This document shows positions 27,263-59,097 of a stretch of DNA of 64,000 bases, piece after piece. This DNA is from an uncultured Gammaproteobacteria bacterium (GTDB taxonomy: Bacteria; Patescibacteriota; Patescibacteriia; Patescibacteriales; UBA12465), in assembly GCA_964608425.1 (NCBI GenBank), contig CAZSNN010000002.1:251-64250 (forward strand), in the 5' to 3' direction. The notes beneath the pieces are model-generated. The model made no database searches, was not told the origin of the DNA, and saw only the letters and a list, made by a program, of their open reading frames with translations. Position 1 is the first letter of the stretch; every line of letters starts with the position of its first letter. The translations under genes were made by a program, and so were the position numbers.

Positions 27263-27958
27263 ATGTTTAATAAAAAATTATTTTTGTTATTATTCATAAC
27301 AATTTTTCTATCTGCTTGTTCTGGCAATAGAGCAAACAACAACCTCTCTTCTTACAATCTTTTTAATGATAATTCAGAAGAATTAGCTTCAGGAAGTGAT
27401 TTTGTAGGAATAGAAGAGAATCGGGAAAGTAAATTAACTAATGAAAATATAAACCAACTTAAAGATTATCAAAATATTTATGTTTCTAAAAATTTAAATA
27501 TTAGATTTCTTTATGCCAAAAAAGACCCACTTTATAATCAAGATTGTGAAATATCAGAAAAAGATAATACTATTTATAATTCTTGTGGATATAGCGTAGA
27601 AGTGGCAAGGAAAGATCCTGAATTAAGCAACTTGGAAGTTGTTAACAGCCTCATAAAAACAGAAAATCAAGATTATTGTGAAATATTAGAAAAATATGAC
27701 AATAATTTTAAAAATACCTACCAAATATTACCAATTTATGATAAGATACCTGACAACTTGAGTGATATTTTTGATATTTGCGGAAAATATACTAGTCATT
27801 ACTTAAGTAATCAATATAAGCTTTTTTTTGATCCCGAGTATTTAAATTATTTTTTAATAATTAAATATGGAGGTCATGAGCCACAGGGGGTCTTGGATAT
27901 TCTAGATGATGGTTCCCTAAAATATTGGTTTGAAACAATAGAATTTATTAATAAATAA
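27263..27958 (+). CDS. Lipoprotein, function unknown
   Basis: Signal peptide ending in the classic lipobox FLSAC. 231 aa. Confidence 0.6.
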   Translation: MFNKKLFLLLFITIFLSACSGNRANNNLSSYNLFNDNSEELASGSDFVGIEENRESKLTNENINQLKDYQNIYVSKNLNIRFLYAKKDPLYNQDCEISEKDNTIYNSCGYSVEVARKDPELSNLEVVNSLIKTENQDYCEILEKYDNNFKNTYQILPIYDKIPDNLSDIFDICGKYTSHYLSNQYKLFFDPEYLNYFLIIKYGGHEPQGVLDILDDGSLKYWFETIEFINK

Positions 27959-27981: not shown

Positions 27982-29466
27982 ATGAAATTTTGTAAAAAAA
28001 ACTTTTTTCTATTTTTAATTTTTGGAATTATCTTTTTATTTTCCACTAATAATGTTTTTGCTCAATCTATAGAAATCAAAGAAATCAACTCCCCTACTAA
28101 CAAAAATTTGAATTCTGTTCATGTTAACGATAGTAATATCTATATATTTGGTGATGATTGTTTTGCGGCTAAATCTATTAATAATGGTGTTTCTTGGGAA
28201 ATTCTTAATATACCTAATTGTTCAGGTGATATAAAATCTGCTTATATAAACTCTTCTAATGACGATATAATAATAATAGGAGATAATTTTATAAAAAGAA
28301 AAAATACTCCTTATGCTCCTTGGGGAAATTTTTCTAATTTTACCGAAAGTGGTGAATTCGGTTCTATTTTATCTGATTTTAATAATAATATCTATTTATT
28401 TCCAAAGAATAATAAAGGAAATGGGACTAGACTCTCAGCACTAAACAATAGCCCGTATAATTTTTATTTACCAGCAACAAAAAATTCACCTAGAATAAGT
28501 GACTTTACTTATAGAGCAACCTCGTTAAGTGGTAATATCTTGGTTACTTTTTTGCACAATTTAAGTAATAGCGGAATTTTTTCCTCTGTTTATATATCTG
28601 ACAATAACGGACAATCATGGAAGACTGGTAAGATAGAAGCAGATCCATCTAAATTAATGACTTATGTTGTAGCATCTTCTTTTAATAATAATAATGGTTT
28701 TATGGCCGGAGTTCATTATGGTGGGTATGGAATATTCTTGTATAAAACCAGTGATAATGGAAACAATTGGAGTTTCGTTAGCTCGAAAAATGAAAATCTT
28801 AATCCGAAATCTATATACACAATTGATTCTAATAATTTTATAGTCGTTGGCAGTAAATTAAGTGTTAACAAATGGGATAAAGGATTTATAATGGATAAAA
28901 ATGGAGAAATTGTTGATTTCAACTCTCCTCTTAATTATATTTCTAGTTCCAAAGATGATAATAAAAAAATAATAGCCGTTGGTGATAACGGAAAAATTAT
29001 TGAAATTATTTTTAATGCTCAGACAAGCTCAAATTTATTTATTGATAATTTTATTAACAATGGAGTGGATTATAATACCAGGAAATTAGGCAAAGGAGAA
29101 AGAATGGCTGTTATAAGTTCTTATCAATTAGCTTTTGGAAAAACACCAGAAAGTGATATGGAAATAAATGATATTATTAAAATTGCTAATGGCCGATGGC
29201 TCTCTATTACTAGTTCTAGTGCTGAAAATAGAGCTAATAATGAATTTGAAAATATTTATAAAAGAAGAGCTAATATGAACAATACGAATGATAACGCTGC
29301 TATAACTATTATAGCTTATGGCCTAAGACAAAAAGCTGAGAATAGAAGCTTAAATAGTGAATCAGCCGGTTTAAAAATATTTAAAGCTATCTATAATAGA
29401 TTGCCTCAAAATACTAGTGATTGGAATATACTTCAGGCCATAACTTATTCTGGTGCTACTAGATAA
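27982..29466 (+). CDS. Secreted BNR/Asp-box beta-propeller-like protein with a conserved C-terminal module
   Basis: Signal peptide (VFAQS). Asp-box-like motifs SINNGVSWE, SDNNGQSWK and SDNGNNWS. The C-terminal 128 aa are homologous to the C-terminus of the 1360-aa protein. Confidence 0.6.
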   Translation: MKFCKKNFFLFLIFGIIFLFSTNNVFAQSIEIKEINSPTNKNLNSVHVNDSNIYIFGDDCFAAKSINNGVSWEILNIPNCSGDIKSAYINSSNDDIIIIGDNFIKRKNTPYAPWGNFSNFTESGEFGSILSDFNNNIYLFPKNNKGNGTRLSALNNSPYNFYLPATKNSPRISDFTYRATSLSGNILVTFLHNLSNSGIFSSVYISDNNGQSWKTGKIEADPSKLMTYVVASSFNNNNGFMAGVHYGGYGIFLYKTSDNGNNWSFVSSKNENLNPKSIYTIDSNNFIVVGSKLSVNKWDKGFIMDKNGEIVDFNSPLNYISSSKDDNKKIIAVGDNGKIIEIIFNAQTSSNLFIDNFINNGVDYNTRKLGKGERMAVISSYQLAFGKTPESDMEINDIIKIANGRWLSITSSSAENRANNEFENIYKRRANMNNTNDNAAITIIAYGLRQKAENRSLNSESAGLKIFKAIYNRLPQNTSDWNILQAITYSGATR

Positions 29467-29591: not shown

Positions 29592-30086
29592 ATGAAAAAA
29601 ATCAAGTTGTTATCAATTTTTGTCGTAGCTGGGTTAATTCTTACATACTCCCCTGCTTTAGCAAAAAATGAACAGATACTAAAACCGCAAATTGAAAAGA
29701 GAAAGGTTGATTTAACAGTAACAAATATCAATTTTTCAAGTCATTCGACGAACAAAATAGGAAAAATGTCAGTAACAGTTAAAAATGTCGGAAATAAATC
29801 TTTAACAAGTACTCAGGGAATTTTAAATACTTATTTTAATCTACCCTCTCAGCAACCTGATTGGCAATTCTATGGACAATCTTCACCAATGAATTTTTTA
29901 ACAAGCAGACCATTACCAAGCGCCAATAACCCTTTATTGCCTGGAGAATCAATATCTTTTATTTGGTTAGGTCGATTTACTGAAGCCGGAAATTATTATA
30001 TTCACTACAAAACTGATAATGCTAACGAACTAAATGAGCTAAACGAAAATAATAATAGTTTGTCAACTGTAATCTCAATTAATTAA
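29592..30086 (+). CDS. Secreted CARDB-like domain protein
   Basis: Signal peptide (ALAKN), DLTVTNI...VTVKNVG, and the terminal NELNELNENNN motif typical of CARDB domains. Confidence 0.6.
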   Translation: MKKIKLLSIFVVAGLILTYSPALAKNEQILKPQIEKRKVDLTVTNINFSSHSTNKIGKMSVTVKNVGNKSLTSTQGILNTYFNLPSQQPDWQFYGQSSPMNFLTSRPLPSANNPLLPGESISFIWLGRFTEAGNYYIHYKTDNANELNELNENNNSLSTVISIN

Positions 30087-30513: not shown

Positions 30514-31779
30514 TTATGGTAAATAATTTAAAGGATTAACCGGAATCCCATCTTTTCTAATTTCAAAATGTAAATGAGGCCCTGTAGAGAAAGGACCAGC
30601 CCCCGGAGTTCTAGGCGCACCTCCAGTTCTTCCAATTACTTGTCCTTGGGTTACATATTGGTCCTCTTTAACACTTACAGCTGAAACATGACCATAAACA
30701 CTAGAATAAGTGTCATCGTGTATTATCATAATATATCCATAGTTAGTACTGCCATCAAATTTAACCCTAGCAACATAACCAGAAGCAGTAGCCATTAAGG
30801 TAGAGCCCTGAGAGGCTCTAATATCAACCCCAGAGTGTTCTCCAATTGATTTCCTAAAAGGATAAGATGGATCATGAAAAGTGGCTGTAATGGTATTTTT
30901 AGTTACTGGCCAAGCAAAATCACTTACTTGTTCTTGAATTCCGCTATCTCCTTTTTTAGCCAATTTTTCTCGAACAGTCCTTTCCAACGAAGAAATATCA
31001 GCCATAGCTTGATCATTTTCCTTTTTAGCCCTATCCAATAATTTTTTATATTCCTTTTCTGATTGCTGTGTTTCTGACAAAATAAATTCTTTATTAGTTA
31101 TTTCGCCGTCTAAAATATTTTTTTTATTTTCTAATTCTTTTTTTAATTCGGCTAATTTATTTTTTTTCTCCTCTAAAATTTTCTTTTGTTCATCCATTTC
31201 TTCTTTTCCGGTTTTTAAAGTAGCTAAACTTTGACTTATTTCCTCGTTAGTATTTTCTAAATAAGTTAATTGATTTATAAAATCAGCCAAAGAATTATTT
31301 AATAAAATAACCTCTAGAGGACTAGTTTCTCCTTGTTTATAAATTAATTTTAGTAAAGTGGCAATATGCTTCTTTTCTTTTTCTATTTGCTCAGTTTTGT
31401 TTTCTAAATCTATTTCAATTTTCTTTATTTCCAAGTTATTTTTGCTTATTTCTAAAGTAGCTTCGTCAATTTCTAATTCCGATTGCTTTAATCTAGTATC
31501 TAAAATTTCTAATTGATTTTGTAAGCTATCTTGTTCCTGCTCTTTGTCTTTAATTAATTTGGCATATTCAGCTTGTTTTTTTTGCAAAGCCTCCATTTGC
31601 TTTCTTTGCGTTTGGATTTGACTGTTTAAATCTTCGATTTCGGAATCAATACTAGAATATTGTCCAATGGCAGAATCTGATTTTAATAAAAAAAGACCTG
31701 AAACTAGAAAAAGTCCCAAGAAATAAATTAAAAATTTTTTATAATTTTTATTCATATTTTTGTTAATAAACAATAACAT
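30514..31779 (-). CDS. M23 family peptidoglycan metalloendopeptidase with N-terminal coiled coil (EnvC-like architecture)
   Basis: Signal/TM, a coiled coil of about 230 aa, then M23 motifs HSGVDI, GHVS and GPHLHFEIR. An alternative start is at 31755 (MNKNYKK). Confidence 0.85.
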   Translation of the reverse strand: MLLFINKNMNKNYKKFLIYFLGLFLVSGLFLLKSDSAIGQYSSIDSEIEDLNSQIQTQRKQMEALQKKQAEYAKLIKDKEQEQDSLQNQLEILDTRLKQSELEIDEATLEISKNNLEIKKIEIDLENKTEQIEKEKKHIATLLKLIYKQGETSPLEVILLNNSLADFINQLTYLENTNEEISQSLATLKTGKEEMDEQKKILEEKKNKLAELKKELENKKNILDGEITNKEFILSETQQSEKEYKKLLDRAKKENDQAMADISSLERTVREKLAKKGDSGIQEQVSDFAWPVTKNTITATFHDPSYPFRKSIGEHSGVDIRASQGSTLMATASGYVARVKFDGSTNYGYIMIIHDDTYSSVYGHVSAVSVKEDQYVTQGQVIGRTGGAPRTPGAGPFSTGPHLHFEIRKDGIPVNPLNYLP

Positions 31780-51626: not shown

Positions 51627-52439
51627 TTAAAAAGCGTATAAAAATAAAAATAATATTACTCCCAATAATATTCTATACCAGCCAAATATAGAAAAATTAT
51701 TCTTTTTAATAAACTTTAATAAAAACCTAATACTAATCCAGGCAACTACAAAAGAGGCCACAAATCCGATTATTAAAAAAATAATTTCCTCTGAATTAAA
51801 ACTAAAGCCAGTTTTAACCAAATCCAAAGAAGAAGCTGCTAGCATTGTTGGAATGGCCAATAAAAAAGAAAACTCTACTATTACTAAACGACTAATACCC
51901 ATTGATAATCCTCCTAAAATTGTGGCAGCTGATCGAGAAACTCCTGGCACTATAGCCAAAGATTGAAAAATACCAACAATAAAACATTGCTTATAGCTCA
52001 TAACGCTAATATCAACCTCGGAATTATTGCTTTGAATATCCTTTAATTCCCTATTTTTTTCTTGATATTTTCTCTCCAAAATAACGATAGCAATACCACC
52101 CAAAAATAAAGCCAAGGCAATTATCTCTAAACTCTCTTGTAAGAAGTTTTTAACCAAGCCATAACTCAATAAACCTATTATAGCCGTTGGAATAAAGGCA
52201 ATCATTAATTTTTTAAAATAAATAACCTTATTATTCCAAAGCTTTTTCCAGTACAAAATAATAACCGCTAAAATAGATCCAAATTGAATTATAATAATAA
52301 AGCTTTTTAGAAATTCTGACATCTCCAACTTCAACAAACTAGCACTTAAAATAAGGTGAGCTGTTGATGAAATTGGTAAAAATTCGGCAAAGCCTTGTAT
52401 TATTCCTAATACAAGGCTTTTTATAAAAAAGATAATCAT
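51627..52439 (-). CDS. uppP: Undecaprenyl-diphosphate phosphatase
   Basis: GIIQGFAEFLPISSTAHL and PGVSRSAATI motifs. 8 TM helices. Confidence 0.9.
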   Translation of the reverse strand: MIIFFIKSLVLGIIQGFAEFLPISSTAHLILSASLLKLEMSEFLKSFIIIIQFGSILAVIILYWKKLWNNKVIYFKKLMIAFIPTAIIGLLSYGLVKNFLQESLEIIALALFLGGIAIVILERKYQEKNRELKDIQSNNSEVDISVMSYKQCFIVGIFQSLAIVPGVSRSAATILGGLSMGISRLVIVEFSFLLAIPTMLAASSLDLVKTGFSFNSEEIIFLIIGFVASFVVAWISIRFLLKFIKKNNFSIFGWYRILLGVILFLFLYAF

Positions 52440-52441
52440 AT

Positions 52442-55400
52442 TTATTTAACAGCCAATTCAAAGAATTTATCCAATAATTCAACTGTAATTTCTGAATTTT
52501 CCGAAGCAACGGAATTAATCCAATCCAAGTTGTTTTCGACCTGGCTAATTAAAACATTTCTATAAGCCCAAGAATTAACTATTCTCCACTCCCCGTCAGT
52601 TTGAGGCAGTTTGTTATAATTCTTAACAAATAATTCTATAGCCCATTTTTCTTTAGCAATACTTCTTTCCATTGGTAAAATTCCATAAGAAAATCTCAAA
52701 AATTGATTTAATTCTAAGATAAAATTATCCTCATCAATCTTTGTAATATCATTTTCTTTAATGATATTATTTAGTCTATAAAAATTTCCTAAAAACTTCG
52801 GCTCTAATTCAGAATTTCTAATTAATGGAACCCTATTATTGGCAATCTTTAAAACATCTTCAATATCAGATTCTGTTTGTGGAATATTACCTTTAACGCT
52901 AGTATAATTTATTACGGTAGCCGCTCTTTGTCCCTCACCTAAACGAACAGTACTTTCTGTTCCATAAGCTAAATAATTCTTTAAAGATGTTTTTACTTCT
53001 GGAGTACTAGCTCCAACAAATAAGCTTTGGTGTTTAACTTCGACCTTCTTTTCTAATTCTGAGTCTGATTTTTCAACATTTACCGATCTTAATAATAACG
53101 TCTTAATCTCTTCTTTTGGACTCTTATGAACCATTTGAGCTTCGGTTAATAATTTAGCATCAACAACTTTAGCAGCCTCTTTAGACGGGGTTGTTAAATT
53201 TTCTTTTTCTGGATTAATCTTTTCCCTAATTAACTCTCCTGTAACCGGATTATAAACCTCTTTATACTCTGGTTCAATTGGCTTTGTTTCTACAACAGGA
53301 GTAGATGGATTATCTTTATACTGAAGGATTGGTTTAGAGATTATTTGAAACTTTGCCGGAAAAATATTGCAATAACTATCTACAAAATTTAAAATTATTG
53401 ACTGATCAACGGGATAAGAAACTAATTTACCAGAAGAATAACTAAAAGCTGGGATATATAAAGAGTTACCTTTAATAATAAAATTACGATATTTATCACT
53501 ATCTTCAATATTTATATAAGCAATCCTATTTGTTTCAGTTTTGTCGATTACATCAATTTTTTCATTAATTTCAGAGACTACATCGGTTTTTAATTTTTCA
53601 TCTCCAATAATAGCAGATTCTTTTTCAGAAACTACATTAGCTTTTTGATCATATTCAGTAGCTCCATCATATTTTAATTTTTCATCTCCAATGATAGTAG
53701 ATTTTTCCCCAGACATCACGTCAGTTTTTTGGTCATACTCAGTAGCTCCATCATATTTTAATTTTTCATCTCCAATAATAACAGGCTCTTTTTCCTTAGA
53801 ATTATCTAAATTAAAATTTATTTTAAAATATCTTAAATTCTTTAAACCAGAAAAAGAAGAAATATTTTGATTAATATATTTTTTTTGAATTTCTGAATTA
53901 ATTAAATAATTAAAATACAAAACTCCAATCTTTTTCTGGCTATATTTATTTAGATATTCATCATCAAAAGAAAAAATCTCAATCGGCAAACTTATTAATT
54001 CATTATTTTTTTTACAAACTCCAGAAAGATTTAAATTTACATTAAAATAATATTGATAATTATTTTTGCTAAGCTCGTCCAAATAATTGATTTTCCATTT
54101 ACTGTTAATAGGATTATTTTTCCAATAATTACCGGTCTCTCCTTTTAGATAACAAGTAACTGGGTAATAAAAATCAATTTCTTGATTCCTATTGAACACA
54201 TAAACGGAATTATTATTTTGATCTAAAAAATTATAATCATAATCCTTACCACCAACATCATATTTTAAAGAGTTTAATTTTGGTTTTTCTGAATTTAAAC
54301 TTAAAGTAAATCTAATATAACGACAACTAGGACTTAATTCTTTCATATATTCCAAGTCTTTAGGGAAAAGATATTTGTTATTTAATTGTGAATCAACTAA
54401 ATAATCACCTTTTTCCTGTTGATAAAAGAAGGTGTTAGAATTAAAGCCAATTTGACCATTTGATGACACTAAAGCTTCGTTATTAAACAAAAATTGTTTA
54501 GCTGGAAAAGCTTTTATGTCCGAATGAGAGGATCCATCAGATAAAGAAAAGGAAGTAGAAATAATTTTTTCCATTATTATTAAACCACTACTATCTTTAA
54601 TCCTGGTTATTAAAGAGAAATCTTTTAAAACTTGATTATAATAAGGGATAAATTGCTTAGAATCATCTAATTGAGCTACAGCAAAATAAAATTTAATTAA
54701 TTTATTTTCTTGGTCATATTGTATCACAAAATCTTTGCTATTTGGGTTATAAGGAGATCCATTTATTAAAAAAGAAAGACTAGCAACATCACTGGCCTCC
54801 TCGTCCGTTAAATTAAAGGAGGTGTCCAGATATCTGAACTGATGATCTCCCACTCCCTGCTCTTTTGATAAATTTAATTCTTTATAATTAGTAGAACCAT
54901 CTTTATTTAAAATAATATCACTAACTTCCATCCTGCCGTCATAAATTTTTGTTAATGTATATGGAATTAATTGACTAGAAATATAACTTGAAATTACATT
55001 TGAAGGTTGTTTTTGTTTAATATCTTCAAATAAAACATTAACTTCTTTTTCCCCCACAAGACCACCCTCGCTATCAAAAAATTGAATTAATAATTTTTGG
55101 GAATTATTTTCTAATGGAGTCCAATTAATTTTGTCACCCCTAGAGGCTAAGGCAAAATCAACTGAAATACTAGAACCAGATGAAGAAAAATCATGATAGA
55201 ATACCTTGCCTCCATCTATAGTCCAAGAGGCAGTCATGGCTTCTGGATAGGGATTGGAGATTATAGCAGTAAAATAGCCAATATCTTCTCCTAATTGACC
55301 CATGGCTTGGTTATTAAAAGAAAAATTTAATAAATTTGAAAAAGTTCCATTATAATCTAGTTCCCCTAAATTTTTTATAACGATTAAGCCATTAGAAATT

Positions 55401-56524
55401 TCTGCAAAATTACTCAACTCCTTGGGATCTTTCACAGAAATAAACTCTTTAGCTAAAGCATTGGATTCTTTTATAATATTAAAAGAAAAATTAACTTCTT
55501 GCTCGCCTATTATAGAGTTTTTCTCATCTATTAACCTAACTACTAAATTAAAATTCTGAGCACCTTCATAGTAAGGAGAAAAATTTTTAGAAAAATCTTC
55601 CTTAGCAACAGCAAAATAAACATTAATCTTTTCTTTTTCAGAGTTAATTAAAAAAACATCATTATTTACTTGAAGCTCTTGCCCATTAATAAAAAACTTT
55701 AAGGAAGAGTAAGCTTGATTAAGTTTTAGAGAAAAATCAAAATATCTATTAGTTGATAATCCTATCATCTGCTCTTTTGATAATATCAAGTCTTTATTAT
55801 CAGTGGTTCCATCAGTCTTTAACACGATGTCACCAAAATTAATTGATCCATCTAATATTGTTGGGTTTAAAATCTCTAATGGAAAAAGCATCCCTGGATT
55901 AATATCAGCAGCAATAAAATTAGTTGGTTTTTGTTGTTTTAAAGAGCTATTAGAAATAACCAAAGTTTTTATCCCTAATTCATTGCCATCCTTATCAATA
56001 AACTTCATTAATAAATTTTGTGTTCCCCAATCAATTGGAGTCCAATTAACTCCATCTTTTTTTTGGGCTAAAGGATGATCTATTTCAAAAGCTCTATCAA
56101 CTAAATTATAAGTAAATTGTTTGTCATTATTTATAACATATACCACGCTTTCAGCCTCTGGATATGGAGATATAATATTAAATCTAAAATAACCAATATT
56201 TTTTCCGTAAAAACCTTCTTTTTGTTCAGAAAAAGTATAAGTAGGAAGCTCCTTAGGAACCCCAGCGTAACTTAATTCGGATATACCCTTAATATTAATC
56301 ATTCCATTAGAAAGTATGGTAACTTTATCAGCTACACTTGGATCTTTATATTTAATAAACTCAACCGGCAAAAGGTCATCAGCGGCTCGAGCACTAAAAT
56401 TTTCAAAAGCAAAAGGATTATTAAAACGACTTTCAATCATCGCTTTAATGTTAATAAAATGAATAGAAGAAACCACTAGAATCGAATAAAAAAATATTCG
56501 AAGAAAAAGATTTTTTGTTGTCAT
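52442..56524 (-). CDS. Giant secreted/surface protein (1360 aa) with internal module duplication, 28-aa tandem repeats and a conserved C-terminal module
   Basis: N-terminal signal anchor. Two paralogous modules of about 320 aa (aa 35-345 and 350-665). IIGDEKLKYDGATEYDQK repeats. C-terminal region homologous to that of the 494-aa protein. Its stop lies 2 nt from the uppP start. Confidence 0.75.
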   Translation of the reverse strand: MTTKNLFLRIFFYSILVVSSIHFINIKAMIESRFNNPFAFENFSARAADDLLPVEFIKYKDPSVADKVTILSNGMINIKGISELSYAGVPKELPTYTFSEQKEGFYGKNIGYFRFNIISPYPEAESVVYVINNDKQFTYNLVDRAFEIDHPLAQKKDGVNWTPIDWGTQNLLMKFIDKDGNELGIKTLVISNSSLKQQKPTNFIAADINPGMLFPLEILNPTILDGSINFGDIVLKTDGTTDNKDLILSKEQMIGLSTNRYFDFSLKLNQAYSSLKFFINGQELQVNNDVFLINSEKEKINVYFAVAKEDFSKNFSPYYEGAQNFNLVVRLIDEKNSIIGEQEVNFSFNIIKESNALAKEFISVKDPKELSNFAEISNGLIVIKNLGELDYNGTFSNLLNFSFNNQAMGQLGEDIGYFTAIISNPYPEAMTASWTIDGGKVFYHDFSSSGSSISVDFALASRGDKINWTPLENNSQKLLIQFFDSEGGLVGEKEVNVLFEDIKQKQPSNVISSYISSQLIPYTLTKIYDGRMEVSDIILNKDGSTNYKELNLSKEQGVGDHQFRYLDTSFNLTDEEASDVASLSFLINGSPYNPNSKDFVIQYDQENKLIKFYFAVAQLDDSKQFIPYYNQVLKDFSLITRIKDSSGLIIMEKIISTSFSLSDGSSHSDIKAFPAKQFLFNNEALVSSNGQIGFNSNTFFYQQEKGDYLVDSQLNNKYLFPKDLEYMKELSPSCRYIRFTLSLNSEKPKLNSLKYDVGGKDYDYNFLDQNNNSVYVFNRNQEIDFYYPVTCYLKGETGNYWKNNPINSKWKINYLDELSKNNYQYYFNVNLNLSGVCKKNNELISLPIEIFSFDDEYLNKYSQKKIGVLYFNYLINSEIQKKYINQNISSFSGLKNLRYFKINFNLDNSKEKEPVIIGDEKLKYDGATEYDQKTDVMSGEKSTIIGDEKLKYDGATEYDQKANVVSEKESAIIGDEKLKTDVVSEINEKIDVIDKTETNRIAYINIEDSDKYRNFIIKGNSLYIPAFSYSSGKLVSYPVDQSIILNFVDSYCNIFPAKFQIISKPILQYKDNPSTPVVETKPIEPEYKEVYNPVTGELIREKINPEKENLTTPSKEAAKVVDAKLLTEAQMVHKSPKEEIKTLLLRSVNVEKSDSELEKKVEVKHQSLFVGASTPEVKTSLKNYLAYGTESTVRLGEGQRAATVINYTSVKGNIPQTESDIEDVLKIANNRVPLIRNSELEPKFLGNFYRLNNIIKENDITKIDEDNFILELNQFLRFSYGILPMERSIAKEKWAIELFVKNYNKLPQTDGEWRIVNSWAYRNVLISQVENNLDWINSVASENSEITVELLDKFFELAVK
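53592..53785 (-). repeat. 84-bp tandem coding repeat, about 2.3 copies
   Basis: Units at 53592-53675 and 53676-53759, plus a partial third copy from 53760. They encode IIGDEKLKYDGATEYDQK(T/A)(D/N)V(M/V)S(G)EKS(T/A). Confidence 0.9.
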
Positions 56525-56577
56525 AAAATAAAATTTAATACTAATTTTTATATTTAATTATTTTTAAATTATATCAC

Positions 56578-59097
56578 TTAGTTTATAGAACGTAAAGCTA
56601 TTTCCTTTAAAATAACATCCCGATCTTTACCATATTTGTAGCGACTCAATTGCCTAATAGCGTCAGCCAAGCCATCCTTTTTTTCTCCCATTAATGGCCA
56701 AATTGTCTGAAAAGAAAAAGGTCGAACTGATTGTCCATCAACTAATAGCTTTACAAAACCACCCCGGCCCACATTAACTAAATCATATTGATTGAATACT
56801 GGACCAAATTCTTTAACTAAAAACTCAGCATCTTCAGAACCAACTCTAAAACTTGCCATAGTTCCAACGTTTCCAAAAACAGCGTCCTTTATCTGGGTGT
56901 CTTGATTCTTGCTAAGCTGACCAATGTATTGATGAGCTATATTTAAACATAGGGCATATTTTCTAGCCTCTGATAAAATCTGACAAATAGAATTAGTAGT
57001 AAAGTTTTGAAACTCATCGATATATAAATAAAAATCTTTTCTTTGTTCTTGTGGAATATCAGTCCTAGATAGAGCTGCCATTAATATTTTTCCTACAATA
57101 ATCATACCTAAAAGATAAGCGTTTGATTCTCCAATAGATCCCTTGGGTAAATCCACCATTAATATTTTTTGACTATCCATTAAATCCCTGAAATTAAAAG
57201 CACTATTTTGTTGACCAATAATTGGCATCATCATATCATTGGAAACAAAGGGGGTTAATTTCGAAGTAATATAAGGAACCATATTAGCTAAGGCTGCCTC
57301 TCCCCCGGCCTTTTCAGCCTCTTTCTGCCAAAAATCAACTACCGTTTTATTTTTGCAAAGATTTAATTTCATGCGACGAAAATCTTCATCCGCTAGCACT
57401 TTGGATATTTCCATTAAAGTTGACCCTGTTTCTGGACTATCCATAATCAATAATAAAGCATTTCTCATATACTGCTCAAACATTGGTCCTCCGGTAGCCT
57501 TGAGATCATACAATTTATCAAAGATTCCAATCATTTCATTAATAACAAAAGTTTTTTGTTCTGGATACCTAGGATCATATTCTAACAAATTTAATCCAAT
57601 AGGTCTTTGAGTGTCAGCCGGCGAAAAAATAATTACATCCTCAGCTCTCTCTGGCGGAATACGATTTAAAATATCTTCAATTAAATCACCATTAGGGTCC
57701 ATAACGCAGACTCCATGACCATTTTGAATATCTTGAATAGCTAAATTATTTAACAACACAGATTTACCAGTACCAGATTTACCAACAATATACATATGAC
57801 GACGGCGATCAACCGGCTTAATTCTAACATCAGTTTTAATTCCTCGATAAACATTGTAGCCAAGAATAATTCCATCCTTAGGAATATTACTTGGAGCTGG
57901 AGCTGTCTTTGAGGTTAGCCAGTCAATGTTAGGGGTTTCAGTGTGGGGTAAAGGAAAATGAAACATACTTACCAATTCTTGAGTACTTAATAAAAAACTT
58001 TGTCTCTCAATAAAGCGTCGATAAATAAAATTATTAATAATGTCCTCTTGATTTAATTTTTTTACCTTTCTAAAATAATTTCCATATTGATAATAAGTAT
58101 ATTCACTAAAAGCATTAGTAATATTATCAAAAAATAATTTTGTTTTTTCTTCGCTGTCAGAACTGACCACTATTCTAAGATTAACATCCAGCCCTGGCTT
58201 AGCATTTTTGTCTTCCATTTTTTTTAACATTTCCCTTTCTTTTTCGGTTAATTCTTTTTTATTTCCCTCCATCTCTGGTCCTTTTTCAGCCTTACCCATA
58301 CTAAATAAACCCAAAACAATATCGTAAACTAAAAAATTAACTGTATTATGAAAAGCCGAGCTACTACTTCTGAAAATTTCACTAACATCATTCTTTTTAT
58401 AAGCATTTAAAACAGATCTCTTTAATTTGGCGTGCCAGTCTTTTTTAGCACTTCTAACCACATATTGAATAGCAATATTTTCATCATTTTCTAGCTTTGA
58501 CATTACATTTATCAAAGAATCCATGGGATCGGATTCCATATCCTTGTAGTCTAAAAATGGGAAAATAAAACTACGGCCAGCTTTGAAACGACCAGCCTTA
58601 ATGTGGCCTTTGGGATTAAAAGCATTATAATCTTCTATTGGTTCAACCGAAGCTTCTGGATAATAAGCATGAATTTGTTGCTCCATATAAAGAGCCTTAT
58701 CCTTGGGAGCAGTAACATAAAAAGAAATTTTACTCTTATTAGCAACTATTTCAAAGGAAAAATTATCATTTCTACCAAAAAACCAATCAACAATACTTTT
58801 TTTCACCCTCAACCCGCCAACACTGGCAAAAATATTTTCTCCCTTAGAAATCTCTTCTTGTAATTGCTGAACAGTTAAAGAAGAATCTTGATCTTTTGGC
58901 TTTTCCTTAGGCAATCTGATCAAAAAAATAGAATTATTATTATTTTTATTTCTAACCGAAAAATATTTTATAAAATATCTAACTACAAACAAAGCAATCA
59001 AAAGAAACAAAAATATACCTATTAGATATAAATAATCTAAATTTCTCTCTACTATCAGCTCCCCTTCTAGGGCCAATTGATTGCTAAAATCGTTCAT
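56578..59097 (-). CDS. Membrane-anchored FtsK/HerA-superfamily ATPase, TraD/TraG/VirD4 (type IV coupling protein)-like
   Basis: N-terminal TM. HMYIVGKSGTGKSVLL (Walker A) followed by VCVMDPNGD, YLYIDEFQNF (Walker B) and ARKYALCLNIAHQYIGQL (coupling-protein-type RK...Q..QL). Confidence 0.65.
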   Translation of the reverse strand: MNDFSNQLALEGELIVERNLDYLYLIGIFLFLLIALFVVRYFIKYFSVRNKNNNNSIFLIRLPKEKPKDQDSSLTVQQLQEEISKGENIFASVGGLRVKKSIVDWFFGRNDNFSFEIVANKSKISFYVTAPKDKALYMEQQIHAYYPEASVEPIEDYNAFNPKGHIKAGRFKAGRSFIFPFLDYKDMESDPMDSLINVMSKLENDENIAIQYVVRSAKKDWHAKLKRSVLNAYKKNDVSEIFRSSSSAFHNTVNFLVYDIVLGLFSMGKAEKGPEMEGNKKELTEKEREMLKKMEDKNAKPGLDVNLRIVVSSDSEEKTKLFFDNITNAFSEYTYYQYGNYFRKVKKLNQEDIINNFIYRRFIERQSFLLSTQELVSMFHFPLPHTETPNIDWLTSKTAPAPSNIPKDGIILGYNVYRGIKTDVRIKPVDRRRHMYIVGKSGTGKSVLLNNLAIQDIQNGHGVCVMDPNGDLIEDILNRIPPERAEDVIIFSPADTQRPIGLNLLEYDPRYPEQKTFVINEMIGIFDKLYDLKATGGPMFEQYMRNALLLIMDSPETGSTLMEISKVLADEDFRRMKLNLCKNKTVVDFWQKEAEKAGGEAALANMVPYITSKLTPFVSNDMMMPIIGQQNSAFNFRDLMDSQKILMVDLPKGSIGESNAYLLGMIIVGKILMAALSRTDIPQEQRKDFYLYIDEFQNFTTNSICQILSEARKYALCLNIAHQYIGQLSKNQDTQIKDAVFGNVGTMASFRVGSEDAEFLVKEFGPVFNQYDLVNVGRGGFVKLLVDGQSVRPFSFQTIWPLMGEKKDGLADAIRQLSRYKYGKDRDVILKEIALRSIN

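What the first reader, a model, noticed from the sequence alone, without database searches (positions are those of the whole stretch)
29080..29463. A C-terminal module of about 130 aa is shared by two otherwise unrelated secreted proteins
**The two copies.**
- The last 128 aa of the 494-aa BNR-like protein: RKLGKGERMAVISSYQLAFGKTPESDMEINDIIKIANGRW ... AYGLRQKAENRSLNSESAGLKIFKAIYNRLPQNTSDWNILQAITYSG.
- Residues 1193-1323 of the 1360-aa protein (nt 52556-52948, minus strand): VRLGEGQRAATVINYTSVKGNIPQTESDIEDVLKIANNRV ... SYGILPMERSIAKEKWAIELFVKNYNKLPQTDGEWRIVNSWAYRN.

**Conserved positions.** LG-G-R-A, Y, G-x-P, D-x-x-KIAN-R, YG, (E/N)RS, F-x-x-x-YN-x-LPQ, W-x-I and Y.

**Internal structure.** The module itself looks like two copies of a motif of about 35 aa: A-x2-(I/F)-x3-(F/Y)-(G/N)-(K/R)-x-P-x4-5-(D/E)-(W/I)-x2-(I/V)-x2-I-(A/T)-x-(G/S/N).

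**Interpretation.** I cannot assign it to a named domain. Its C-terminal position on two exported proteins suggests a cell-surface anchoring, sorting or partner-binding function.
Basis: seen in the sequence. Interest (0 to 1): 0.55.

Follow-up and report, generated by a model that had tools for sequence, protein, structure and literature searches.

The report
Unnamed C-terminal surface-protein module of Patescibacteria
Two unrelated exported proteins in this window share a real, about 140-residue helical end-piece that belongs to a large, unnamed domain family of ultra-small (Patescibacteria/CPR) bacteria and most likely holds surface proteins on the cell envelope.

Summary
The last ~141 aa of the 494-aa protein (nt 29041-29463, +) and aa 1181-1321 of the 1360-aa protein (nt 52562-52984, -) are homologous: BLASTP E=1e-12. 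A profile built only from outside sequences scores them at 203 and 75 bits.

The module is not a private duplication. It belongs to a family of at least 1,359 clusters at 50% identity, seen in Patescibacteria/Parcubacteria-group genomes and always annotated "hypothetical protein". It has no match in Pfam, NCBIfam, PDB sequences or Foldseek searches of PDB and BFVD.

AlphaFold2 predicts a confident all-alpha domain (pLDDT 93.6).

In 149 carriers it ends the protein in 99 and is followed only by a short tail, mostly a ~46-aa Ca-binding TSP3 tail, in 43. Carriers have N-terminal signal-like segments, acidic extracellular domains (CARDB, FN3, Ig-like, subtilase, Kazal), and no LPXTG or C-terminal membrane helix. 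The module itself is basic (pI ~9).

Best reading, inferred and not shown: a non-covalent envelope-retention module, functionally analogous to the SLH or CWB2 triplets but not homologous to them. It is moderately interesting as a new domain family with a probably new fold.

The parts
27982..29466 (+). Carrier 1: gene for a 494-aa exported protein. It has a signal-like N-terminus (MKFCKKNFFLFLIFGIIFLFSTNNVFA), a weakly BNR/Asp-box-like domain of ~320 aa, and the C-terminal module.
   Evidence: ORF. N-terminal hydrophobic segment with Kyte-Doolittle 3.2. Only sub-threshold BNR hits. A syntenic ortholog of 500 aa is present in L006. The identical protein was found on a Logan contig from run SRR8925811.
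29041..29463 (+). Module copy 1 (aa 354-494). It ends the protein with the family's signature ...AITYSGATR-stop.
   Evidence: BLASTP E 1e-12 to copy 2. 203 bits against the external-only HMM. AF2 pLDDT 93.6 with 8 helices. 85% identity to the L006 ortholog, against 74% for the N-terminal part.
29083..29208 (+). Repeat 1 of copy 1 (aa ~368-409): LGKGERMAVISSYQLAFGKTPESDMEINDIIKIANGRWLS. It forms a helix-loop-helix ending in the invariant K-I-x-N-x-R columns (KIANGR in this copy).
   Evidence: hhalign R1~R3 probability 94%, E 1e-7. Helices 18-32 and 39-49 of the model. Invariant columns P36, K47, I48, N50, R52.
29209..29331 (+). Repeat 2 of copy 1 (aa ~410-450): ...SAENRANNEFENIYKRRANMNNTNDNAAITIIAYGLRQK. 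It forms a helix-loop-helix ending in YGLR.
   Evidence: hhalign R2~R3 probability 93%, E 4e-7. Helices 59-73 and 82-93. Invariant columns E62, F69, Y93, G94.
29332..29463 (+). Repeat 3 of copy 1 (aa ~451-494): AENRSLNSESAGLKIFKAIYNRLPQNTSDWNILQAITYSGATR. It forms a helix-loop-helix ending in YSGATR.
   Evidence: Repeat comparison. Helices 104-118 and 125-136. Invariant columns R102, E107, F114, P122, W128, Y136.
52442..56524 (-). Carrier 2: gene for a 1360-aa exported protein. It has an N-terminal hydrophobic segment, a duplicated ~300-aa unit (aa 52-350 and 357-661), a 28-aa tandem repeat, and a divergent module near the C-terminus.
   Evidence: ORF. N-terminal hydrophobic segment. Internal duplication at 37% identity, E 2e-51. 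84-nt tandem repeat at 53588-53794. No Pfam domain.
52562..52984 (-). Module copy 2 (aa 1181-1321). This is a divergent member: ANNR replaces ANGR, YGIL replaces YGLR, there is a 6-8 aa insertion in repeat 2, and the YSGATR end is missing.
   Evidence: 75 bits, E 1e-22 against the external-only HMM, covering profile positions 1-133 of 138. tblastn coordinates. The AF2 model has the same helix order, but repeat 2 is of low confidence (overall pLDDT 69.5). No close relatives were found by the word-index search.
52445..52561 (-). Tail of 39 aa after module copy 2 (VLISQVENNLDWINSVASENSEITVELLDKFFELAVK). It is predicted helical and is unrelated to the TSP3 tail that follows the module in other carriers.
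   Evidence: The TSP3 tails of other carriers are seen.
29592..30086 (+). Neighbouring 164-aa exported CARDB-domain protein. It is not part of the module, but CARDB is among the module's commonest fusion partners elsewhere, after the TSP3 repeat and level with Pur_ac_phosph_N (for example P0030).
   Evidence: Pfam CARDB E 1.7e-10. CARDB found in 30 of 140 carriers. P0030 architecture. The gene order is conserved in L006 and L085.

Best explanation
The module is a lineage-specific, non-covalent cell-envelope retention domain of Patescibacteria (Parcubacteria-group) surface proteins.

**Proposed mechanism.**
1. The carrier is exported by Sec through its N-terminal signal peptide.
2. Its variable, acidic ectodomain faces outward. 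In this window that is a BNR-like domain or a duplicated domain of unknown type. Elsewhere it is CARDB, FN3 or Ig-like arrays, subtilases, or Kazal inhibitors.
3. The conserved, basic C-terminal module is a compact bundle of three helical hairpins. It binds a conserved component of the organism's own envelope. The most likely ligand is peptidoglycan or a wall-linked anionic glycopolymer; membrane lipid or an S-layer/receptor protein is less likely.
4. Binding would use the invariant and near-invariant polar and aromatic residues at the start and end of each hairpin: GER, KIANGRWP, YGLR, NRN-SE and YSGATR.
5. The protein is thereby kept on the cell instead of being released.
6. A conserved coiled-coil segment upstream of the module would act as a stalk. 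A Ca-binding TSP3 tail downstream of it would be an accessory.

**Shown.** Homology of the two copies, the size of the family, the three-repeat all-alpha prediction, the C-terminal position, the extracellular partner domains, the charge asymmetry, and the absence of any other anchor.

**Inferred.** Export, retention, and the nature of the ligand.
For: **Real and widespread domain.**
- 1,359 representative proteins with E<=1e-3, of which 909 have E<=1e-30.
- At least 400 confirmed stretches in GTDB species genomes, whose titles name the Patescibacteria group, Parcubacteria, Falkowbacteria, Komeilibacteria, Uhrbacteria and Yanofskybacteria.

**Position.** 99 of 149 carriers end exactly at the module. 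Another 43 have only a 31-75 aa tail, mostly a 46-aa TSP3 repeat.

**Carriers look exported and lack any other anchor.**
- 101 of 126 Met-starting carriers have an N-terminal hydrophobic segment.
- None has LPXTG or a C-terminal membrane helix.
- Minimal carriers are just a signal peptide, a Pro/Thr linker and the module (P0225, P0197).

**Partner domains are extracellular.** TSP3_bac 42, Pur_ac_phosph_N 31, CARDB 30, fn3 25, Kazal, Ig-like, PKD, subtilase S8, polysaccharide deacetylase.

**Conserved module on variable carriers.**
- 45-65% identity between modules of different candidate phyla, while the N-terminal parts do not align.
- 85% against 74% identity between the window protein and its ortholog.
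- This fits a conserved self-ligand.

**Charge.** Module median pI is 9.0 (net +2). N-terminal parts have median pI 4.6. From general knowledge, a basic module is often seen in wall- or teichoic-acid-binding domains.

**Triple repeat with a near-invariant Arg at each hairpin end**. This parallels the SLH and CWB2 triplets, where conserved surface Arg residues are proposed to contact the wall polysaccharide (review PMC5817068).

**Several dispersed carriers per genome.** Two in this 64-kb window; several assemblies appear twice; two loci carry two carriers each.
Against: - There is no experimental datum and no homology to any domain with a known ligand. There are no Pfam, NCBIfam or PDB sequence hits.
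- There is no Foldseek hit with E<0.3 or TM>0.32 in PDB or BFVD.
- No cell-wall hydrolase or phage lysin carrying the module was found. Such a fusion would have been the classic signature of a wall-binding domain. IMG/VR, INPHARED and PLSDB searches were all negative.
- Helical-hairpin repeats are more often protein-binding than glycan-binding.
- Copy 2 in this window is neutral (pI 6.6) and lacks some near-invariant residues.
- 25 of 126 Met-starting carriers lack a recognisable signal segment. They are probably truncated gene calls, but this was not checked.
- No conserved neighbouring gene points to a ligand pathway.
Confidence: 0.5

Rival explanations
1. The module is a protein-protein docking or oligomerisation domain. 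It would bind a conserved envelope receptor protein or S-layer subunit, or it would assemble carriers into oligomeric stalks together with the upstream coiled coil. It would not bind a wall polymer. The outcome may still be surface display, but through a protein partner, as with dockerin-cohesin pairs or WXL proteins and their membrane partner.
For: - The domain is all-alpha with helical-hairpin repeats. From general knowledge of TPR and Sel1-like repeats, this architecture typically mediates protein binding.
- A conserved coiled-coil motif ((K/R)EQxxxIxYL) lies directly upstream in 78 of 140 carriers (consensus).
- There are weak sub-threshold Pfam hits to the TPR-like EccA1 N-domain in 4 of 22 members (best E 0.0012).
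- WXL proteins set a precedent for a C-terminal surface module that also binds a cognate membrane protein (PMC5817068).
Against: - No conserved neighbouring gene that could encode a receptor was found in 79 loci.
- The coiled coil is absent from copy 1 in the window and from its ortholog.
- Foldseek returned no TPR, Sel1 or other repeat-protein match.
- The strongly basic module on acidic carriers is explained more simply by an anionic polymer ligand.
Confidence: 0.25
2. The module is an adhesin head directed at something outside the cell, such as the host cell surface of these presumed episymbionts or an environmental polymer. The N-terminal part would then be the tether.
For: - All cultivated Patescibacteria are episymbionts that need host-binding surface proteins (abstract of PMC11623550, listed).
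- The conserved Arg, Asn, Tyr and Trp residues would also suit glycan binding in general.
Against: - After signal-peptide cleavage the N-terminal regions have no anchor. Nothing would then tether the protein.
- The module is the conserved part and the N-terminal domains are the variable part. That is the reverse of what is expected for host-specific recognition across many candidate phyla.
- The N-terminal domains (Ig-like, FN3, CARDB, lectin-like, protease) are the typical outward-facing parts.
Confidence: 0.1
3. The module is a C-terminal secretion or sorting signal that is recognised and perhaps removed by a dedicated machinery. Examples are the T9SS C-terminal domain, or a T4SS signal. The T4SS idea arises because the 1360-aa gene lies next to a VirD4/TrwB-like ATPase.
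For: - The module has a strict C-terminal position in most carriers and a very conserved terminus, YSGATR-stop.
- A VirD4/TrwB-like coupling ATPase is encoded directly upstream of carrier 2.
Against: - Carriers already have Sec-type N-termini.
- There is no C-terminal membrane helix, basic tail or sortase-type motif.
- The module can be followed by a TSP3 tail (43 of 149) or by 178-410 further residues (P0124, P0119).
- Carrier 1 and 79 other loci show no T4SS neighbour.
- At 140 aa and this level of conservation, the module is far larger than needed for a signal.
Confidence: 0.05
4. The similarity is chance or a compositional artefact of an AT-rich genome.
For: - The window has only 29.8% G+C.
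- The two copies share only 28% identity.
Against: - BLASTP with compositional adjustment gives E 1e-12.
- An independent external profile gives E 1e-22 and 4e-62.
- Hundreds of homologs from genomes with 27-51% G+C share the same invariant columns.
Confidence: 0.01

Closest known systems
SLH (S-layer homology) domain triplet, Pfam PF00395 (e.g. Bacillus anthracis Sap, PDB 3PYW)
   Same: - A terminal module made of three tandem helical repeats.
- It is carried by many otherwise unrelated Sec-exported surface proteins in one genome.
- Each repeat has a conserved Arg.
- It confers non-covalent retention without a membrane anchor. This is shown for SLH (PMC5817068) and only inferred here.
   Different: - There is no sequence match to PF00395.
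- There is no (I)TRAE motif.
- The repeats are ~40-45 aa rather than ~55 aa.
- No SLH structure appears among the 50 listed Foldseek PDB matches, none of which is significant.
- The ligand is unknown here, whereas SLH binds pyruvylated wall polysaccharide.
- The lineage differs: Patescibacteria rather than Firmicutes, Actinobacteria and others.
CWB2 (cell wall binding repeat 2) triplet, Pfam PF04122 (Clostridioides difficile Cwp family)
   Same: - Three adjacent repeats form one anchoring unit.
- The unit is shared by a paralogous set of diverse surface proteins, including proteases and S-layer proteins.
- Conserved Arg residues are proposed to contact a wall polysaccharide.
   Different: - CWB2 repeats are ~90 aa. 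From my own knowledge they have an alpha/beta fold.
- The repeats here are ~40-45 aa and all-alpha.
- There is no HMM match.
WXL C-terminal domain, Pfam PF13731 (Lactobacillales/Bacillales)
   Same: - A C-terminal domain of ~120-190 aa on extracellular proteins that lack any other anchor.
- It is lineage-restricted.
- It directs proteins to the cell surface non-covalently.
   Different: - There is no sequence match and no WxL / YxxxLTWxLxxxP motifs.
- WXL genes are clustered with partner genes, whereas the carriers here are dispersed and have no conserved neighbour.
DUF4214 (Pfam PF13946) helix-loop-helix repeat
   Same: From memory only, the motif is alike: hydrophobic-x2-(I/L)-Y-x(n)-R-x-P-(D/S)-x(n)-W-x3-(I/L)-x2-G. 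Like this module, DUF4214 occurs in tandem in large secreted proteins. Two DUF4214 phage proteins appear among the non-significant BFVD Foldseek hits (E 3.3).
   Different: - No HMMER hit was found, even at E<=10, for any of 22 members.
- As I recall the DUF4214 consensus, the spacing between the Y, P and W positions differs.
- The Foldseek hits are far from significant.
- DUF4214 has no known function, so membership would not explain the mechanism.

Membership tests
New family defined here (Patescibacteria C-terminal three-hairpin module) | Significant match to a profile built from family members outside this window | tested here: met
   Copy 1 scores 203 bits (E 4e-62). Copy 2 scores 75 bits (E 1e-22) over 133 of 138 profile positions.
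New family defined here (Patescibacteria C-terminal three-hairpin module) | Signature motifs KIANGR(W/F)P, AYGLR, NRN-SE, and the terminus (T/A)YSGATR | tested here: met
   Copy 1 has all of them, apart from L in place of the near-invariant P in KIANGRW-L. Copy 2 keeps KIAN-R, YG, ERS-KE, F, P, W and Y, but lacks G51, R96 and the SGATR end, so it is a divergent member.
SLH domain (PF00395) | Match to the Pfam SLH model | tested here: not met
   No SLH hit for the two whole proteins at E<=1, nor for 22 modules at E<=10.
SLH domain (PF00395) | Conserved (I)TRAE motif in each ~55-aa repeat | tested here: not met
   The alignments show repeat ends NGRWP, YGLR and YSGATR, with no TRAE. The repeats are ~40-45 aa. 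The motif definition is from PMC5817068.
SLH domain (PF00395) | Fold like the solved SLH triplet (PDB 3PYW) | tested here: not met
SLH domain (PF00395) | Binds pyruvylated secondary cell-wall polysaccharide | not testable with these tools
   This needs binding assays.
CWB2 (PF04122) | Match to the Pfam model, with ~90-aa repeats | tested here: not met
   No hit. The model here is all-alpha with ~40-45-aa repeats.
Other catalogued wall-binding domains (LysM PF01476, WXL PF13731, SH3b types, SPOR, CW_7 PF08230, PG_binding_1 PF01471, PGB2 PF08823, CWB1 PF01473, ChW PF07538) | Match to the respective Pfam model (list from PMC5817068) | tested here: not met
   None appears for the window proteins or for 22 modules at E<=10. 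The only wall-related name is one member's PMBR hit at E 0.35, which is chance level.
DUF4214 (PF13946) | Match to the Pfam model | tested here: not met
   It is not listed for any of 22 members at E<=10. A profile-profile (HHpred) test could not be run because no DUF4214 alignment was available. The BFVD Foldseek hits at E 3.3 are not significant.
C-terminal sorting signals (LPXTG/sortase; PEP-CTERM-type exosortase/archaeosortase signals) | Short motif followed by a C-terminal membrane helix and a basic tail | tested here: not met
   None of 140 carriers has LPxTG in the last 60 aa. No carrier has a C-terminal hydrophobic segment, and the only internal one flagged lies at residue ~909 of the 1536-aa P0049. 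The window proteins end in ...YSGATR and ...FELAVK.
TPR / Sel1-like helical repeats | Match to Pfam TPR or SEL1 models, or a Foldseek match to TPR structures | tested here: not met
   No TPR or SEL1 hit. The only related result is a sub-threshold T7SS_EccA1_N hit in 4 of 22 members (E 0.0012). There are no TPR structures among the listed Foldseek matches.

The most novel reading that the evidence does not exclude
The module is the Patescibacteria-specific counterpart of the SLH and CWB2 triplets. On this reading it is a previously undescribed fold that recognises a conserved, possibly CPR-specific, wall polymer. Its presence would then mark the 'surfaceome' of a large part of the Candidate Phyla Radiation, including the proteins these ultra-small episymbionts display towards their hosts.
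Probability: 0.4. Interest if true: 0.65.

Novelty: new variant of a known kind. Interest (0 to 1): 0.5.

Why it matters
**Why the family is useful.** Most Patescibacteria are uncultured, and their cell envelope and host-contact proteins are largely unknown. This domain is conserved, easy to recognise, and sits at the end of hundreds of otherwise unrelated exported proteins. It gives a sequence handle for listing their surface proteins directly from metagenomes.

**What follows if it is an anchor.**
- It points to a conserved envelope ligand that could be identified biochemically.
- It provides a tag for displaying or pulling down CPR surface proteins and cells.

**What holds regardless of function.** The family has at least 1,359 clusters at 50% identity, has a confident predicted fold with no significant Foldseek match, and is missing from Pfam and NCBIfam. 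It deserves a family entry.

Tried and rejected
**Searches that found nothing.**
- Pfam, NCBIfam and PDB-sequence searches with the whole proteins, the isolated module and the family profile gave no meaningful hit.
- Foldseek searches of PDB and of BFVD gave nothing significant. The top hits, annexins at E 0.37 and TM 0.2, were rejected.
- A word-index homolog search with copy 2 alone found no relatives.
- A full-text search for the peptide motifs KIANGRW and YSGATR found nothing, and AYGLR matched only osteopontin papers. Two topical literature searches found no description of the domain.

**Ideas tested and dropped.**
- I looked for phage or plasmid carriers, since a lysin fusion would have indicated wall binding. 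IMG/VR, INPHARED and PLSDB all returned none.
- I looked for a conserved neighbouring gene across 79 loci. None was found. The largest 'cluster' was an artefact of antisense ORFs over the module. The next were housekeeping genes: a thioredoxin-like membrane protein, MetRS, a CvpA-like protein, RsmH and MraZ, each in at most 10 loci.
- Tandem arrays of carriers are rare, occurring in 2 of 79 loci.
- The DUF4214 resemblance, recalled from memory, was not supported by HMMER.
- A T4SS-substrate idea for carrier 2 (adjacent VirD4-like ATPase) was rejected because carriers have Sec-type N-termini and other carriers lack such neighbours.
- A PDB sequence search with the N-terminal domain of carrier 1 returned only low-complexity hits to protein A constructs.
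Full report

Yes. One is 27982-29466 (+, 494 aa) and the other is 52442-56524 (-, 1360 aa). The quoted coordinates translate to exactly the quoted peptides.

BLASTP of the two whole proteins gives one significant segment. It aligns aa 354-489 with aa 1181-1321, at 28% identity over 144 columns and E=1e-12. Nothing else scores below E=1, so the proteins really are otherwise unrelated.

The stronger test uses an HMM built from 20 family members from other organisms, with both window copies left out. It scores copy 1 at 203 bits (E 4e-62). It scores copy 2 at 75 bits (E 1e-22) over profile positions 1-133 of 138. It finds no third copy in the six-frame translation of the window (tblastn agrees).

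The window has 29.8% G+C, but the family occurs in loci of 27-51% G+C. Composition is therefore not the explanation.

The refined spans are nt 29041-29463 (+) and nt 52562-52984 (-).

**2. What is it?**

*A large, unnamed family.* It is a member of a large and completely unannotated domain family.
- A word-index search with copy 1 found 29 close relatives at 45-68% identity. All were called 'hypothetical protein', apart from one 'thrombospondin type 3 repeat-containing protein'. Their organism names were Patescibacteria or Parcubacteria.
- An exhaustive profile search of 1.84 billion cluster representatives found 1,359 proteins at E<=1e-3 and 909 at E<=1e-30.
- The record titles named the Patescibacteria group, Parcubacteria, Falkowbacteria, Komeilibacteria, Uhrbacteria and Yanofskybacteria. 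These candidate phyla sit in the Parcubacteria group of NCBI taxonomy.
- 26 of the 79 loci come from bulk third-party bins titled 'uncultured Gammaproteobacteria'. Their G+C distribution is the same as that of the rest, and I regard those titles as unreliable.
- A second profile search again returned only 'hypothetical protein' names.
- The module has no match in Pfam-A (2025 copy), NCBIfam (2026) or PDB sequences. This holds for single sequences, for whole proteins and for the profile.

*Source of the window.* The window protein itself is found on a contig from run SRR8925811. L006 is a syntenic ortholog region with the gene order lipoprotein, BNR-like/module protein, CARDB protein, M23 peptidase, UvrD-type helicase.

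*Structure.*
- AlphaFold2 on the 22-sequence module alignment gives a confident model (mean pLDDT 93.6, pTM 0.87). It has eight helices and no strands.
- Profile-profile comparison of the three thirds shows that the domain is a triplication of one helix-loop-helix unit. R1~R3 scores 94% probability (E 1e-7) and R2~R3 scores 93% (E 4e-7).
- Each repeat starts with a conserved acidic residue: GER, AE or SE. Each ends with an aromatic or Asn, then Gly-x-Arg: KIANGRWP, AYGLR or YSGATR.
- Fifteen columns are invariant across the alignment that includes the divergent copy 2. They are P36, K47, I48, N50, R52, E62, F69, Y93, G94, R102, E107, F114, P122, W128 and Y136.
- Foldseek found nothing significant in PDB (best E 0.37, annexins, TM ~0.2) or in BFVD (best E 0.88).
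- The model of copy 2 plus its tail is only moderately confident (pLDDT 69.5). It shows the same order of six hairpin helices. Repeat 2, which carries an insertion, has low confidence. Extra helices appear in the 39-aa tail.

*Architecture of the carriers.*
- Among the best 149 representatives, the module ends the protein in 99. It is followed by a 31-75 aa tail in 43, mostly exactly 46 aa. It is followed by 2-30 aa in 5. It is internal in only 2, namely P0124 and P0119.
- The 46-aa tail is a bacterial thrombospondin type 3 (Ca-binding) repeat. It was found in 42 of the 140 carriers scanned.
- The other partner domains are all of extracellular type. They include Pur_ac_phosph_N (31), CARDB (30), fn3 (25), Kazal inhibitors, Ig-like, PKD, TIG and cadherin-like domains, subtilase S8, laminin-G/lectin, polysaccharide deacetylase and transglutaminase.
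- Of 126 carriers starting with Met, 101 have a hydrophobic N-terminal segment. None of the 140 has LPxTG or a C-terminal membrane helix.
- Both window proteins have such N-termini.
- Minimal carriers consist of a signal peptide, a Pro/Thr-rich linker and the module (P0225, P0197).
- In 78 of 140 carriers a conserved coiled-coil-like motif, (K/R)EQxxxIxYL, precedes the module. It is absent from copy 1 in the window.
- Two subtypes exist. The 'Q-type' has ...YGLRQxAxNR... (carriers such as P0030 continue ...QAITYSG); there are 94 of these, and copy 1 is one. The 'R-type' has ...YGLRPxxRN... (e.g. P0031...RAIAYSG); there are 46.

*Other observations.*
- The module is basic (median pI 9.0, net +2), while the N-terminal parts are acidic (median pI 4.6).
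- The module is more conserved than its carrier. Between the window protein and its ortholog it is 85% identical, against 74% for the rest.
- Across candidate phyla the modules stay 45-65% identical while the N-terminal parts do not align at all.
- Carriers are dispersed. Only 2 of 79 loci have two carriers, and no neighbouring gene family is shared by more than 10 loci.
- No phage or plasmid record carries the module.

**3. How does it most likely work?**

My best explanation, at confidence 0.5, is a non-covalent envelope-retention module. The proposed steps are these.
- Export by Sec. A signal-like N-terminus is shown. Export and cleavage are inferred.
- The variable, acidic ectodomain is displayed outward. 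This is inferred from the types of partner domain.
- The conserved, basic three-hairpin module binds a conserved component of the cell's own envelope. It would do so through the invariant and near-invariant Arg, Asn, Tyr and Trp residues at the hairpin ends. This is inferred.
- The coiled coil acts as a stalk and the TSP3 tail as a Ca-dependent accessory. Both are speculative.

The logic is as follows. These proteins are exported and have no other retention device. The one element they share is terminal, is conserved far beyond its carriers, and is oppositely charged to them. A triple repeat with a conserved Arg per repeat is also the design of the two best-understood wall-polysaccharide anchors, the SLH and CWB2 triplets (review PMC5817068).

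The ligand is open. I rank it as peptidoglycan or wall-linked anionic polymer first, then an envelope protein or S-layer, then membrane lipid.

The rivals are listed here with my confidence in each.
- A protein-protein docking or oligomerisation domain (0.25). Helical hairpins and the upstream coiled coil favour it. The absence of any conserved partner gene and the charge pattern argue against it.
- An outward-facing adhesin head (0.1). This is contradicted by the conservation pattern and by the lack of any N-terminal tether.
- A secretion or sorting signal (0.05). This is contradicted by the Sec-type N-termini, by the internal occurrences in P0119 and P0124, and by the absence of a membrane-helix tail.
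- Chance (0.01). This is refuted.

**4. Comparison with what is known**

Functionally, the closest analogues are the SLH triplet, the CWB2 triplet and the WXL C-terminal domain. The module is not a member of any of them.
- No Pfam model matches it.
- It has no ITRAE or WxL motif.
- Its repeat length and secondary structure differ from CWB2.
- Foldseek listed no SLH structure among its matches, none of which was significant.

From memory, the repeat motif resembles DUF4214. HMMER does not support this even at E<=10. The two DUF4214 proteins among the BFVD hits are non-significant at E 3.3. I leave this as an untested HHpred lead.

**5. Novelty and score**

The domain family is large, confidently folded, lineage-restricted and absent from the current family libraries and from the searchable literature.

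The kind of thing it most likely is, a shared C-terminal surface-retention module, is well known in other bacteria. I therefore rate it 'new variant of a known kind', with interest 0.5.

It would rise to about 0.65 if it proved to be the CPR counterpart of SLH, with a new fold and a CPR-specific ligand. In that case it would define the surface proteome of a large uncultured radiation.

Noticed in passing
window 29592-30086 (+): A 164-aa exported CARDB-domain protein lies immediately downstream of carrier 1. The gene order is conserved in L006 and L085. In other organisms a very similar CARDB unit is fused in one protein to the coiled coil, the module and the TSP3 tail (for example P0030). This is a possible fusion/fission ('Rosetta stone') link between the two neighbouring genes.
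   Followed up: partly
window 51627-59097 (-): Carrier 2 sits in a tight same-strand run. Upstream is a VirD4/TrwB-like coupling ATPase (56578-59097; Pfam TrwB_AAD_bind E 9e-9). Then comes the 1360-aa carrier. Two nucleotides later is undecaprenyl-diphosphatase UppP/BacA (51627-52439; E 1e-71). This may be an operon linking a T4SS-like ATPase, a giant surface protein and a wall-lipid-carrier enzyme.
   Followed up: partly
window 52442-56524 (-), aa 52-350 vs aa 357-661; nt 53588-53794: The 1360-aa protein contains an internal duplication of ~300 aa (37% identity, E 2e-51) with no Pfam match. It also has a 28-aa (84-nt) tandem repeat of 2.5 copies (IIGDEKLKYDGATEYDQK...).
   Followed up: partly
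window 30514-31779 (-): A 421-aa protein has a long coiled-coil N-terminal part and a C-terminal M23 peptidase domain (E 1e-25), resembling EnvC. It lies on the opposite strand, after the CARDB gene that follows carrier 1, and the arrangement is conserved in L006.
   Followed up: no
loci L007, L014, L019, L027, L029 and 21 others: 26 of 79 related loci come from bulk third-party MAGs whose record titles say 'uncultured Gammaproteobacteria bacterium'. One more is titled Planctomycetota. Protein names include Latescibacteria and Nanoarchaeia. Their G+C content matches the Patescibacteria-titled loci, so these labels look like mis-binning or placeholder taxonomy.
   Followed up: partly
P0232, P0247, P0257, P0250: Several short proteins (153-219 aa) on very long contigs (up to 522 kb) start just upstream of the module and lack a signal peptide. 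They may be truncated gene calls from an internal Met or a frameshifted carrier, or they may be genuine stand-alone modules. The upstream DNA was not inspected.
   Followed up: no
79 related loci, minus strand over the module (e.g. L052 5959-6309): A long antisense ORF runs across the module-coding region in 18 loci. It formed the largest 'neighbour' cluster. This is an artefact of conserved coding sequence, not a gene.
   Followed up: yes
related loci such as L073 and L051: In 6-7 of 79 loci the carrier lies next to mraZ and rsmH, the start of the division/cell-wall (dcw) cluster. This is probably lineage synteny, but it is notable given the proposed wall-related role.
   Followed up: no
window 27263-27958 (+): A 231-aa predicted lipoprotein (signal ...FLSAC, no family match) lies directly upstream of carrier 1, 23 nt away. 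It is conserved in the same position in L006 and L085.
   Followed up: no
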